From NCBI RefSeq assembly GCF_009914755.1, contig NC_060925.1: a stretch of 64,000 nucleotides of DNA; one strand, written 5' to 3'. Positions 52,490 to 64,000 of the stretch are shown in pieces. The number at the start of each line of letters is the position of its first letter. Position 1 is the stretch's first letter. This DNA comes from the human T2T-CHM13v2.0 reference genome, Homo sapiens. The notes beneath the pieces were generated by a model, which was not told the origin of the DNA, did not search any database, and saw only the letters and a program-made list of their open reading frames with translations. Both the position numbers and the translations under genes were made by a program.

Positions 52490-57687
<5,198 letters not shown>

Positions 57688-57688
57688 G

Positions 57689-57753
57689 ACTGTACAACTG
57701 TATCAGCTGCTCGTAGGACATGTCCAGCAGCTGCTCGAGGTCCACGCCGCGGT
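57689..57753 (-). pseudogene. RPS15: 65 nt fragment of RPS15 (uS19) coding sequence, processed-mRNA-like
   Basis: The minus strand translates to [21 protein letters not shown], against RPS15 [21 protein letters not shown] as recalled; GC-rich with five intact CpGs in an AT-rich context. Confidence 0.88.
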
Positions 57754-57839
57754 GATACATCCTCTTCACAGACTGCAGAAAAACAGCAGATTTGTGATTT
57801 AACTGGGAGTTTTCTGGGATCAAACAGTAGCTTTGTTTA

Positions 57840-57882
57840 CAGTCCTGGGTATGTCTTTATCAGCGGCATGAAAACAGACTAA
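57840..57882 (+). mobile_element. 3' tip of a THE1/MST (MaLR) LTR
   Basis: cagtcctgggtatgtctttatcagcggcatgaaaacagactaa resembles the THE1 end (...gggtatgtctttatcagcagcgtgaaaacggactaataca). Confidence 0.8.
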
Positions 57883-57884
57883 GA

Positions 57885-58918
57885 AGGAGGAGCCAAGATG
57901 GCCGAATAGGAACAGCTCTGGTCTACAGCTCCCAGCGTGAGCGACGCAGAAGATGGGTGATTTCTGCATTTCCATCTGAGGTACTGGGTTTATCTCACTA
58001 GGGAGTGCCAGACAGTGGGCGCAGGACAGTGGGTGCAGTGCACCGTGCGCGAGCCGAAGCATGGCTAGGCATTGCCTCACTCGGGAAGTGCAAGGGGTCA
58101 GGGAGTTCCCTTTCCTGGTCAAGGAAAGGGGTGACAGATGGCACCTGGAAAATCGGGTCACTCCCACCCGAATACTGTGCTTTTCTGACGGGCTTAGGAA
58201 ACCAGGAGATTATATCCCGCACCTGGCTCGGAGGGTCCTACGCCCACGGAGTCTCACTGATTGCTAGCACAGCAGTCTGAGATCCAACTGCAAGGTGGCA
58301 GCGAGGCTGGGGGAGGGGCGCCCGCCATTGCCCAGGCTTGCTTAGGTAAACAAAGCAGCCGGGAAGCTCGAACTGGGTGGAGCCCACCACAGCTCAAGGA
58401 GGCCTGCCTCCTTCTGTAGGCTCCACCTCTGGGGGCAGGGCACAGACAAACAAAAAGACAGCAGCAACCTCTGCAAACTTAAATGTCCCTGTCATTTTGA
58501 AGAGAGCTTTGAGGAGAGCAGTGGTTCTCCCAGCACGCAGCTGGAGATCTGAGAACAGGCAGACTGCCTCTTCAAGTGGGTCCCTGACCCCTGACCCCCG
58601 AGCAGCCTAACTGGGAGGCACCTCCCAGTGGGGGCAGACTGACACCTCACACGGCGGGCTACTCCTCTGAGACAAAACTTCCAGAGGAATGATCAGACAG
58701 CAGCATTCGCGGTTCACGAAAATCTACTGTTCTGCAGACACCACTGCTGATACCCAGGCAAACAGGGTCTGGAGTGGACCTCTAGCAAACTCCAACAGAC
58801 CTGCAGCTGAGGGTCCTGTCTGTTAGAAGGAAAACTAACAAACAGAAAGGACATCCACACCAAAAACCCATCTGTACATCACCATCATCAAAGACCAAAA
58901 GTAGATAAAACCACAAAG
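57885..58918 (+). promoter_or_regulatory. L1 5' UTR: internal sense promoter (YY1 site CAAGATGGCCG at ~57894-57904) and antisense promoter
   Basis: Intact YY1 motif and CpG-containing 5' UTR; promoter function is established for this L1 lineage but not shown for this copy. Confidence 0.7.
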
Positions 58919-59932
58919 ATGGGGAAAAAACAGAGCAGAAAAACTGGAAACTCTAAAAAGCAGAGTGCCTCTCCTCCTCCAAAGGAACGCAGTTCCTCAC
59001 CAGCAACAGAACAAAGCTGGACAGAGAATGACTTTGATGAGTTGAGAGAAGGCTTCAGACGATCAAACTACTCTGAGCTACAGGAGGAAATTCAAACCAA
59101 AGGCAAAGAAGTTGAAAACTTTGAAAAAAATTTAGACGAATTTATAACTAGAATAACCAATACAGAGAAGTGCTTAAAGGAGCTGATGGAGCTGAAGGCC
59201 AAGGCTCGAGAACCACATGAAGAATGCAGAAGCCTCAGGAGCTGATGTGATCAACTGGAAGAAAGGGTATCAGTGATGGAAGATGAAATGAATGAAATGA
59301 AGTGAGAAGGGAAGTTTAGAGAAAAAAGAATAAAAAGAAACGAACAAAGCCTCCAAGAAATATGGGACTATGTGAAAAAACCAAATCTATGTCCGATTGG
59401 TGTACCTGAAAGTGACGGGGAGAATGGAACCAAGTTGGAAAACACTCTGCAGGATATTATCCAGGAGAACTTCCCCAATCTAGCAAGGCAGGCCAACATT
59501 CAGATTCAGGAAATACAGAGAACGCCACTAAAATACTCCTCGAGAAGAGCAACTCCAAGACACGTAATTGTCAGATTCACCAAAGTTGAAATGAAGGAAA
59601 AAATGTTAAGGGCAGCCAGAGAGAAAGGTTGGGTTACCCACAAAGGGAAGCCCATCAGACTAACAGCGGATCTCTTGGCAGAAACTCTACAAGCCAGAAG
59701 AGAGTGGGGGCGAATATTCAACATTCTTAAAGAAAAGAATTTTCAACCCAGAATTTCATATCCAGCCAAACTAAGCTTCATAAGTGAAGGAGAAATAAAA
59801 TACTTTACAGACAAGCAAATGCTGAGAGATTTTGTCACCACCAGGCCTGCCCTAAAAGAGCTCCTGAAGGAAGCACTAAACATGGAAAGGAACAACCGGT
59901 ACCAGCCGCTGCAAAATCATGCCAAAATGTAA
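58919..59932 (+). pseudogene. L1 ORF1p, disrupted
   Basis: MGKKQSRKTGNSKKQS...QNHAKM with in-frame TGA stops at 59243-59245 and 59303-59305, likely CGA>TGA. Confidence 0.93.
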
Positions 59933-59995
59933 AGACCATCGAGACTAGGAAGAAACTGAATCAACTAATGAGCAAAATAACCAGCTAACATCATA

Positions 59996-63822
<3,827 letters not shown>

Positions 63823-64000
63823 ACAATGAGAACACATGGACACAGGAAGGGGAACATCACACTCTGGGGACTGTTGTTGGGTGGGGAGAGGGGAGAAGGA
63901 TAGCATTAGGAGATATACCTAATGCTAAATGACGAGTTAATGGGTGCAGCACACCAACATGGCACATGTATACATATGTAACTAACCTGCACATTGTGCA

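What the first reader, a model, noticed from the sequence alone, without database searches (positions are those of the whole stretch)
57688..57884. Three-part captured patchwork (antisense RPS15 mRNA fragment, unassigned DNA, THE1 LTR tip) at the 5' junction of a full-length L1PA
Seen in sequence: L1PB ORF2 stops abruptly at ...aaatagttgggact (57687). It is followed by 65 nt of RPS15 coding sequence on the minus strand, ~85 nt that I cannot assign (57754-57839), ~43 nt of a THE1/MST LTR 3' end lacking its last bases, and then the first base of an L1PA3/4. The RPS15 piece has no poly-A or TSD of its own and keeps five CpGs, so it looks young. From recall, an RPS15 intron falls within the 'MSY' codons, so the fragment appears to be spliced. 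Established: L1 RT can template-switch to cellular RNAs (U6-L1 chimeras) and L1 can carry 5' transductions, but such additions are normally co-oriented with the L1. Inference: this is either a multi-template switch or RNA-templated patch made during the L1PA integration, or a 5' transduction from a donor L1 sitting in a THE1.
Basis: partly seen in the sequence, partly recalled or inferred. Interest (0 to 1): 0.8.

Follow-up and report, generated by a model that had tools for sequence, protein, structure and literature searches.

The report
Spliced lncRNA exons fused to L1
The odd DNA in front of this full-length L1 is two spliced exons of a transcript from 2.85 Mb away plus the tip of a THE1 LTR, most likely carried in together with the L1 as one hybrid RNA, a rare but already described kind of event.

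Summary
Window 57689-57751 (antisense RPS15) and 57752-57842 (the "unassigned" piece) are two exons of one minus-strand transcript at chr1:113.21 Mb. There they lie 185 nt apart, bounded by GT-AG. Exon A lies in an RPS15 processed pseudogene transcribed antisense, so the RNA runs the same way as the L1.

Exon B ends at its splice donor. It joins a THE1-type LTR directly after that LTR's polypyrimidine-CAG acceptor.

Past the window end there are nested duplications. After the L1 tail comes gaaaacagactaa (a repeat of 57870-57882), then tacat, A8 and aaatagttgggact (a repeat of 57674-57687). L1PB ORF2 then resumes.

Two histories fit:
- One event (about 0.6): a donor L1 sat in a THE1 tip and was spliced onto the two exons. 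The RNA ended 18 nt past the L1 tail.
- Two events (about 0.3): a small retrocopy was later hit by the L1PA.

Template switching is rejected. No donor locus was found, and only ape and monkey orthologous sites can decide. If it was one event, this is a new member of the mRNA/lncRNA-L1 chimeras of Law and Burns (2026). It is absent from their readable tables.

The parts
57674..57687 (+). Outer target-site duplication, left copy (aaatagttgggact, 14 nt; at least 11 nt). It is the end of the left half of the older L1 ORF2. The right copy lies at window-equivalent 64082-64095 (L009 82-95), outside the window.
   Evidence: ORF2p residues W1011-D1012 (8sxt numbering) are present on both sides and the ORF continues.
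57688..57688 (+). One extra G between the outer duplication and exon A. The source has C here, followed by A.
   Evidence: That it is a cap-derived G marking the RNA 5' end is inference from recalled literature.
57689..57751 (+). Exon A, 63 nt. It is the antisense strand of an RPS15 processed pseudogene and a copy of G000:C1:113210839-113210773 (minus strand). It ends at the ancestral donor gcg|gtaggt.
57752..57842 (+). It is a copy of G000:C1:113210587-113210497 (minus strand). In the source it is preceded by ...tttttcgcttcag and followed by gtgggt.
   Evidence: 84 of 91 identical. No other genomic match among the 40 of 136 candidates scored.
57843..57882 (+). THE1-type LTR tip, 40 nt. It starts directly after the LTR's polypyrimidine-CAG (an acceptor-like site). 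Its last 4 bases (taca), then t and A8, lie after the L1 at L009 72-84.
57870..57882 (+). Inner target-site duplication, left copy (gaaaacagactaa, 13 nt). The right copy is at L009 59-71 (window-equivalent 64059-64071).
57883..64000 (+). Full-length L1PA-type element. It continues to window-equivalent 64058 (about 6.18 kb with its 34-nt A-rich tail, (aat)7 actg a9). Both ORFs are now broken into pieces.

Best explanation
One retrotransposition event of a hybrid RNA: a spliced 5' transduction plus a very short 3' transduction.

Proposed steps:
1. A donor L1PA had inserted into the last 17 bases of a THE1-type LTR, making the 13-nt duplication gaaaacagactaa at the donor site.
2. A transcript began in the antisense strand of an RPS15 processed pseudogene at chr1:113.21 Mb (exon A) and was spliced to a 91-nt exon B.
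3. From exon B's donor it was spliced, in cis or in trans, to the CAG acceptor of the THE1 LTR, 40 nt upstream of the donor L1.
4. The RNA ran through the whole L1. It was cleaved and polyadenylated at a CA 17 nt past the L1's A-rich tail, about 32-35 nt after the last AATAAT/AATACT of that tail.
5. L1 proteins copied this RNA into an older L1 ORF2 in an SLC22A15 intron, making the outer 14-nt duplication aaatagttgggact.

Shown: the exon-exon structure, both nested duplications, both A tails, the source of exons A and B, and the splice-site positions.

Inferred: that the inner duplication was made at a lost donor locus rather than here, that the 5' G marks a cap, and whether splicing was cis or trans.
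For: Source of the two exons:
- Exons A and B map to one locus and one strand, 185 nt apart. The missing 185 nt is bounded by (ancestral) GT and AG.
- Exon B stops exactly at its donor (acag|gtgggt).
- The THE1 piece starts exactly after cctctttcttttgtaaattgcccag|, as seen in a full copy.

Layout:
- The outer duplication encloses exons, THE1 tip, L1, 18 nt and A8.
- L1, A-rich tail, donor duplication, short flank, second poly(A) is the classical signature of a 3' transduction.

Why the two-step reading is awkward:
- It needs an RNA whose last exon is only 45 nt.
- That exon has no AATAAA or ATTAAA.
- Its 3' end would fall 18 nt beyond an L1 tail by coincidence.
- The one-event reading explains that 3' end by the L1's own 3'-end signals.

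The kind is documented (Law and Burns, Cell Genomics 2026):
- 17 mRNA/lncRNA-L1 5' chimeras, 15 starting at the first exon and in sense with the L1.
- Mostly near-full-length L1, with 6 ending at splice donors.
- 15 parental loci lack an intronic L1.
- In the RAP1GDS1 case a source L1PA2 is spliced through a cryptic acceptor 15 bp upstream of the L1.

Other points that fit:
- Ages are compatible. Exons differ from the source at 9 of 154 positions. The L1 5' UTR is 93-94% identical to its best relatives.
Against: - No donor was found. The THE1-tip/L1-5' junction (45 nt) and the L1-tail/THE1 junction (34 nt) are unique in this genome at up to 3 mismatches.
- No THE1-type tip lies in the 210 kb downstream of exon B (positive control). 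The two MaLR LTRs there in the right orientation have unlike tips. Simple cis-splicing therefore needs a longer intron, a later deletion or trans-splicing.
- No sibling insertion carries the same 3' tag.
- Nested duplications are by default read as nested insertions.
- The outer poly(A) is short (5-8 A) while the inner tail is 34 nt. That order is slightly more natural if the outer event is older.
- 5' transductions are reported as extremely rare (PMC4862182, passages).
- The locus is not in the four readable supplementary tables of Law and Burns.
- My preference rests on rough base-rate reasoning, not on a direct test.
Confidence: 0.6

Rival explanations
1. Two nested events. First, L1 proteins copied in trans a small spliced, polyadenylated RNA into the older L1 ORF2. 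That RNA was G + exon A + exon B + a 45-nt THE1-tip exon, about 200 nt, and the insertion made the outer duplication aaatagttgggact. Later an unrelated full-length L1PA inserted into that retrocopy 5 nt before its poly(A), making the inner duplication gaaaacagactaa on the spot.
For: - Each element has its own perfect duplication and its own A tail. This is the standard reading of nested repeats.
- It needs no unobserved donor L1, which fits the unique junctions.
- The L1PA target gaaaac is one of only two or three A-rich sites in the 200-nt retrocopy, so its position near the 3' end is not a strong coincidence.
- The outer tail (5-8 A) is shorter than the inner one (34 nt), as expected if it is older.
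- 5' transductions are rare.
Against: - It requires a 45-nt terminal exon with no canonical poly(A) signal. AATACA ends at the cleavage site, and there is no AATAAA or ATTAAA.
- The alternative is internal priming on an A-run right after a THE1 end. Only 4 such THE1/MST ends were found genome-wide at up to 2 mismatches.
- It requires trans-mobilisation of an obscure antisense-pseudogene transcript.
- Like the other reading, it still needs a THE1 exon that is absent from the 210 kb downstream.
- The divergence of the exons from their source (5.8%) is not visibly greater than that of the L1PA from its relatives (6-7%). With 9 substitutions this is weak evidence.
Confidence: 0.3
2. Template switching or patch repair during L1PA integration. 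The reverse transcriptase jumped from the L1 RNA to a THE1-containing RNA, then to another RNA, then to RPS15 mRNA. Alternatively, cDNA fragments were captured at the 5' junction.
For: Chimeric retrocopies made by template switching exist (U6/L1 and others; search listing, passages). The 3-nt overlap 'cag' at the exon B/THE1 joint could be read as microhomology.
Against: - Both internal joints coincide with canonical splice sites in the source DNA. These are GT after exon A (ancestral), AG before exon B, GT after exon B and AG before the THE1 tip. By simple counting, four dinucleotides give about 1 in 65,000 for arbitrary breakpoints.
- Exons A and B are neighbours on one strand of one locus.
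- The RPS15 piece carries the source pseudogene's private changes.
- The THE1 tip continues after the L1 with a duplicated 13-mer. A switch at the L1 5' end cannot produce that.
Confidence: 0.03
3. DNA-level origin: a segmental copy of the chr1:113.21 Mb region that later lost 185 nt, or a direct RPS15 processed pseudogene fragment next to unrelated DNA.
For: 92-94% identity to the source locus.
Against: - The missing 185 nt has exact GT-AG ends.
- Homology stops at exon ends on both sides.
- The unit ends in a poly(A) and has an L1-type duplication.
- There is no RPS15 3' end or poly(A) on the minus strand here.
Confidence: 0.02

Closest known systems
mRNA/lncRNA-LINE-1 5' chimeric insertions (spliced 5' transductions), Law and Burns, Cell Genomics 2026 (PMC13174262; preprint section 24 read in full, published version read as passages)
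   Same: - First exons of a host transcript, in sense with a near-full-length L1.
- The last exon ends at its splice donor.
- One duplication encloses the whole.
- There is no L1 left at the parental locus.
- Their RAP1GDS1 case uses a cryptic acceptor in the 5' flank of the source L1 (15 bp upstream; here 40 nt).
   Different: - Here the donor's own 13-nt duplication would be kept on both sides of the L1, with an 18-nt 3' flank.
- The acceptor lies in a THE1 LTR.
- The first exon is the antisense strand of a ribosomal-protein pseudogene.
- Contemporaneous arrival, their defining test, could not be run here.
- The locus is not in their four readable tables.
Classical L1 3' and 5' transduction (read-through or upstream-initiated donor transcripts); reviews and surveys PMC6035798 and PMC4862182 (passages)
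   Same: On the 3' side: L1, A-rich tail, donor flank, second poly(A), duplication. Donor flank also lies directly upstream of the L1 5' end.
   Different: The 3' flank is only 18 nt. The 5' part is spliced. No donor locus can be named.
Processed retrocopy of a spliced RNA with a younger L1 nested in it
   Same: Intron loss, poly(A), a 14-nt duplication and an L1-endonuclease-like target. The inner element has its own duplication.
   Different: The would-be retrocopy has a 45-nt last exon without a poly(A) signal, and its 3' end sits 18 nt past the nested L1's tail.
SVA 5' transductions with spliced host exons (MAST2-SVA and others; PMC6139936, search listing only)
   Same: Host first exon(s) spliced onto a retrotransposon RNA and copied as one unit.
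   Different: The passenger there is a non-autonomous SVA spliced at acceptors inside the element. Here it is an autonomous full-length L1 with the acceptor in flanking LTR DNA.
U6/L1 and other template-switch chimeras (PMC4476161 and others, search listing)
   Same: Foreign RNA sequence lies 5' of an L1 within one duplication.
   Different: Those joints are not at splice sites and the partner is usually a complete small RNA. Here every joint is a splice junction.

Membership tests
mRNA/lncRNA-L1 5' chimeric insertion (spliced 5' transduction) | One target-site duplication and one terminal poly(A) enclose the host exons plus the L1 | tested here: met
   aaatagttgggact at 57674-57687 and at L009 82-95; A5-8 before the right copy. 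ORF2p residues 1011-1012 are duplicated.
mRNA/lncRNA-L1 5' chimeric insertion (spliced 5' transduction) | The upstream segment is spliced exons of a transcript in sense with the L1, ending at a splice donor | tested here: met
   Exons A and B lie 185 nt apart in the source with GT-AG ends. Exon B is followed by gtgggt.
mRNA/lncRNA-L1 5' chimeric insertion (spliced 5' transduction) | A splice acceptor on the L1 side of the joint | tested here: met
   The THE1 tip begins right after ...ctctttcttttgtaaattgcccag in a full LTR copy. The acceptor is in the flank, as in the RAP1GDS1 case.
mRNA/lncRNA-L1 5' chimeric insertion (spliced 5' transduction) | Exons and L1 arrive at the same time (present or absent together across species) | not testable with these tools
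   No primate genomes or multi-species alignments are held.
mRNA/lncRNA-L1 5' chimeric insertion (spliced 5' transduction) | A donor L1 with the same flanks exists (supporting, not required: 15 of 17 published cases lack one) | tested here: not met
   Both junction patterns are unique at up to 3 mismatches. There is no THE1 tip in the 210 kb downstream of exon B.
Processed retrocopy with a nested younger L1 | Intron loss, poly(A) and a duplication around the retrocopy; a separate duplication around the nested element | tested here: met
Processed retrocopy with a nested younger L1 | The retrocopy's 3' end is a normal mRNA 3' end (poly(A) signal 10-35 nt upstream of the tail) | tested here: not met
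   There is no AATAAA or ATTAAA in the 45-nt last exon. AATACA abuts the tail.
Processed retrocopy with a nested younger L1 | The retrocopy is present without the L1 in lineages older than the L1 | not testable with these tools
   No primate genomes are held.
Template-switch chimera (U6/L1 type) | Joints unrelated to splice sites, and a partner RNA copied from its 3' end | tested here: not met
   All joints are at splice sites. The THE1 continues after the L1.
Direct RPS15 mRNA-derived fragment | The sequence derives from RPS15 mRNA itself | tested here: not met
   It shares 2 changes with the chr1:113.21 Mb pseudogene. Neither is seen in the gene exon where that exon covers the position, nor in the 4 other pseudogenes aligned. 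It is spliced to the neighbouring non-RPS15 exon of that locus.

The most novel reading that the evidence does not exclude
This would be a fossil of a hybrid lncRNA-L1 transcript that still carries the donor L1's own target-site duplication on both sides. That would show the L1 half was not an L1-promoter transcript but a pre-mRNA that included the donor's flanks. [quoted passage not shown] No THE1 tip lies within 210 kb downstream of those exons and no donor junction survives in the genome, so the joint may have been made by trans-splicing. That is the mechanism Law and Burns propose but could not anchor to flanking DNA.
Probability: 0.3. Interest if true: 0.6.

Novelty: new member of a known kind. 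Interest (0 to 1): 0.42.

Why it matters
If it was one event, the locus adds an unusually legible example to the small set of L1 copies that picked up host first exons (17 in the published catalogue). The acceptor, the donor's duplication and the 3' read-through are all preserved. It therefore shows how the hybrid RNA was built: host exons spliced onto a pre-mRNA that entered the L1 from its flank.

That bears on how L1 can acquire new 5' regulatory sequence, and on the open question of cis- versus trans-splicing.

Under either reading the piece is a roughly 15-30 Myr-old record of a spliced transcript. That transcript started on the antisense strand of a ribosomal-protein pseudogene and used a THE1 acceptor.

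If it was two events, it is an ordinary nested insertion.

Tried and rejected
- **Exon C near the source.** I scanned C1:113000001-113216000 for the THE1 tip and found no hit above 13 nt. The same query finds L007. Two MaLR LTR fragments in the right orientation, at C1:113146799 and C1:113168010, have unlike tips: local score 14 and 13 of 43.
- **Extending the scan.** Anything beyond 210 kb downstream, or more than 5 kb upstream, is unseen.
- **Donor L1.** Both junction patterns are unique. An L1 at C1:113650463 (minus strand) whose alignment began 13 nt early turned out to follow an Alu tail, not a THE1.
- **Siblings with the same 3' tag.** The 5 other genomic matches to the tag plus A-run are four ordinary THE1/MST LTR ends and one unrelated site.
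- **Best THE1 tip match** (C8:132715537, 1 mismatch at a CpG). About one such match is expected by chance among about 450 near copies, and its flank base differs. It is not claimed as the donor.
- **Dating.** There are 9 substitutions in 154 nt between the exons and their source. The L1 5' UTR differs from its relatives by 6-7%. This is too imprecise to order the events.
- **Published catalogue.** There is no row for this locus in the 4 spreadsheets. Three PDF supplements could not be read and may bear on this.

Full report
**What is in the sequence**

Reading left to right on the + strand:

| Position | Feature |
|---|---|
| up to 57687 | older L1 ORF2, ending ...aaatagttgggact |
| 57688 | one G |
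| 57689-57751 | 63 nt that read as RPS15 on the minus strand |
| 57843-57882 | 40 nt of a THE1-type LTR end |
| 57883 to window-equivalent 64058 | full-length L1PA-type element |

I fetched the next 2 kb of the same contig (L009). After the L1's A-rich tail ((aat)7 actg a9, L009 25-58) it reads:
- gaaaacagactaa (L009 59-71);
- tacat (72-76);
- eight A (77-84);
- tagttgggact, followed by the rest of the older L1 ORF2.

- The minus-strand translation of 57689-57754 matches 40S ribosomal protein S15/uS19 residues 17-38, 19 of 22 identical, E about 2e-7 to 5e-7.
- The real RPS15 gene on contig 19 matches only from window 57714 onward, and its exon ends TCCTA|gtaag.
- The 43-mer at 57840-57882 occurs at 452 genomic sites with at most 3 mismatches, against 0 for the reversed control.
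- In a full copy (L007) this 43-mer is the 3' end of a roughly 340-bp LTR that ends ...actaataca. The name THE1 is recalled, not tested.
- Of the 39 other L1 5' ends scored, 23 align from window 57885-57887 and 32 from 57885-57892. The L1 is therefore complete at its 5' end to within a few bases.
- Its reading frames are broken into at least five pieces.

**Where parts 1 and 2 come from**

A search of the window's own genome with 57688-57884 found one locus that holds both parts, 2.85 Mb away on the same chromosome, on the minus strand:

| Source (G000:C1, minus strand) | Matches | Identity (BLAST) |
|---|---|---|
| 113210839-113210774 | RPS15-like part | 92% |
| 113210588-113210497 | 'unassigned' part | 92% |

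In the source the two parts lie 185 nt apart. Read on its minus strand, the locus is a complete RPS15 processed pseudogene lying antisense, running from a poly-T through the whole coding region to the start codon, followed by unique DNA.

The window sequence leaves the pseudogene at ...cacgccgcg. The RPS15 gene and 3 of 4 other pseudogenes read gtaggtgaac at that point, a good splice donor. The source itself now reads gcaggtgaac. The window sequence resumes directly after ...ttccaatttttcgcttcag and runs 91 nt to ...gtttacag. In the source that is followed by gtgggt.

So 57689-57842 is two exons of one spliced minus-strand transcript with the 185-nt intron removed. Excluding a 4-nt insertion in the source, 145 of 154 positions are identical.

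The window piece and the source pseudogene share two changes, ctgTat and gctgCtcgagg. Neither is seen in the 4 other RPS15 pseudogenes aligned. The second is also absent from the gene's exon; the first lies beyond the gene exon that I fetched.

The RPS15 piece therefore came from that pseudogene's antisense transcript, not from RPS15 mRNA.

**The third part**

Exon B ends exactly at its donor. The THE1 piece begins exactly after the LTR's polypyrimidine tract and CAG. This joint too looks like a splice junction. All four boundary dinucleotides fit GT...AG, which arbitrary breakpoints would do about once in 65,000 by simple counting. This argues strongly against template switching or patch repair.

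**The nested duplications**

- gaaaacagactaa (13 nt) flanks the L1PA: 57870-57882 and L009 59-71.
- aaatagttgggact (14 nt, at least 11) flanks everything: 57674-57687 and L009 82-95.
- The two halves of the older ORF2 abut. The left half ends at ORF2p residue 1012 and the right half starts at 1011, in the numbering of 8sxt_A.
- After the inner right copy the THE1 continues for its last four bases (taca), then t and A8.

**Two histories fit**

*H1, two events.* A roughly 200-nt polyadenylated spliced RNA (exon A, exon B, a 45-nt THE1 exon) was retrocopied into the older L1. A later L1PA landed in it.

*H2, one event.* A donor L1PA sat in a THE1 LTR tip elsewhere, and the inner duplication was made there. 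A hybrid RNA was retrotransposed once. It consisted of exon A, exon B, the THE1 acceptor, 40 nt of flank, the whole L1 and 18 nt of 3' flank.

**Tests for H2**

- I looked for the donor. The two junction patterns are unique in this genome at up to 3 mismatches.
- No THE1 tip lies in the 210 kb downstream of exon B (with a positive control).
- Two MaLR LTRs there have unlike tips.
- An L1 at C1:113.65 Mb that looked promising follows an Alu tail.
- The 5 other matches to the 3' tag are four ordinary LTR ends and one unrelated site.
- Ages do not separate the readings. The exons differ from their source by 5.8%, and the L1 5' UTR differs from its best relatives by 6-7%.

**Why I put H2 first, at about 0.6 against 0.3**

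1. H1 needs an RNA with a 45-nt last exon that has no AATAAA or ATTAAA, and whose end falls 18 nt beyond an L1 tail by chance. The alternative is internal priming on an A-run right after a THE1 end, which is rare. H2 explains the 3' end by the L1's own A/T-rich 3' signals. The cleavage CA lies 32-35 nt after the last AATAAT/AATACT, and the layout is the classical signature of a 3' transduction.
2. The H2 architecture is documented. Law and Burns (preprint section 24 read in full; Cell Genomics 2026 version read as passages) report 17 L1 insertions with mRNA or lncRNA exons at the 5' end.
   - 15 start at the first exon and are in sense with the L1.
   - Most have a near-full-length L1.
   - 6 end at splice donors.
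   - 15 parental loci lack an intronic L1.
   - In the RAP1GDS1 family the acceptor is a cryptic site 15 bp upstream of the source L1.
3. The extra G before an A that follows C in the source fits a capped first exon. This interpretation is recalled.

**What counts against H2**

- No donor was found.
- The outer tail is shorter than the inner one.
- 5' transductions are reported as generally rare (Tica et al. 2016, passages).
- Nested duplications are by default read as nested insertions.
- My weighting uses rough base rates and is inference, not measurement.

**Comparison with what is known**

Under H2 this is a new member of the mRNA/lncRNA-L1 chimeras. It has two particular features: the donor's duplication is kept on both sides, and the acceptor is in a THE1 LTR. 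Because no THE1 lies within 210 kb of exon B, trans-splicing stays open.

Searches for SLC22A15, RPS15, THE1 and coordinates beginning 1159, 1160 or 1161 found no row for this locus in the authors' four spreadsheets. Three PDF supplements could not be read.

Under H1 it is an ordinary nested insertion. It would still preserve an old spliced antisense-pseudogene transcript.

**Verdict**

- The 'three-part captured patchwork' reading is rejected.
- Interest is moderate.
- The orthologous site in apes and monkeys would decide.

Noticed in passing
L011 about 720-1190 (G000:C1:113210720-113211190): A complete RPS15 processed pseudogene on the + strand of chr1, with its poly(A) next to a long (AT)n/(TA)n microsatellite. 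Its antisense strand offers a consensus-like splice donor (gcg|gtaggt in the parent gene). That donor has since changed to gca|gcaggt in the human source.
   Followed up: partly
L003-L006, L008, L032: Four other RPS15 pseudogenes read tccagg where the present RPS15 gene, the source pseudogene and the window read tcgagg (Leu codon CTG against CTC). This may be an old synonymous difference in the parent gene or parallel change.
   Followed up: no
window 58811-63822: The full-length L1PA is coding-dead. The ORF1 region is split into at least two open pieces (58811-59245, 59306-59932). ORF2 is split into at least three (59981-60523, 60667-61644, 61645-63822).
   Followed up: partly
G000:C1:113146799-113146864 and 113168010-113168075 (minus strand): Two older MaLR-type LTR ends (about 78-81% to the THE1 LTR of L007) lie 42 and 64 kb downstream of exon B in the transcript's orientation. 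Each has an intact ...aaattaccYag acceptor-like motif. Their tips do not match the window's.
   Followed up: yes
G000:C8:132715537-132715579 (L007): This is the single best genomic match to the window's THE1 tip: 1 mismatch at a CpG, and it shares the rarer CAGTCC variant. It is an intact LTR end with no L1. About one such match is expected by chance, so it is only a candidate for the empty donor site.
   Followed up: partly
L038 (G000:C16:90612630-90612795): A 22-nt stretch, caaaacagactaatacatgaaaaaaaaa, resembles the THE1 end plus an A-run but has no THE1 sequence upstream. It is unexplained and probably chance.
   Followed up: no
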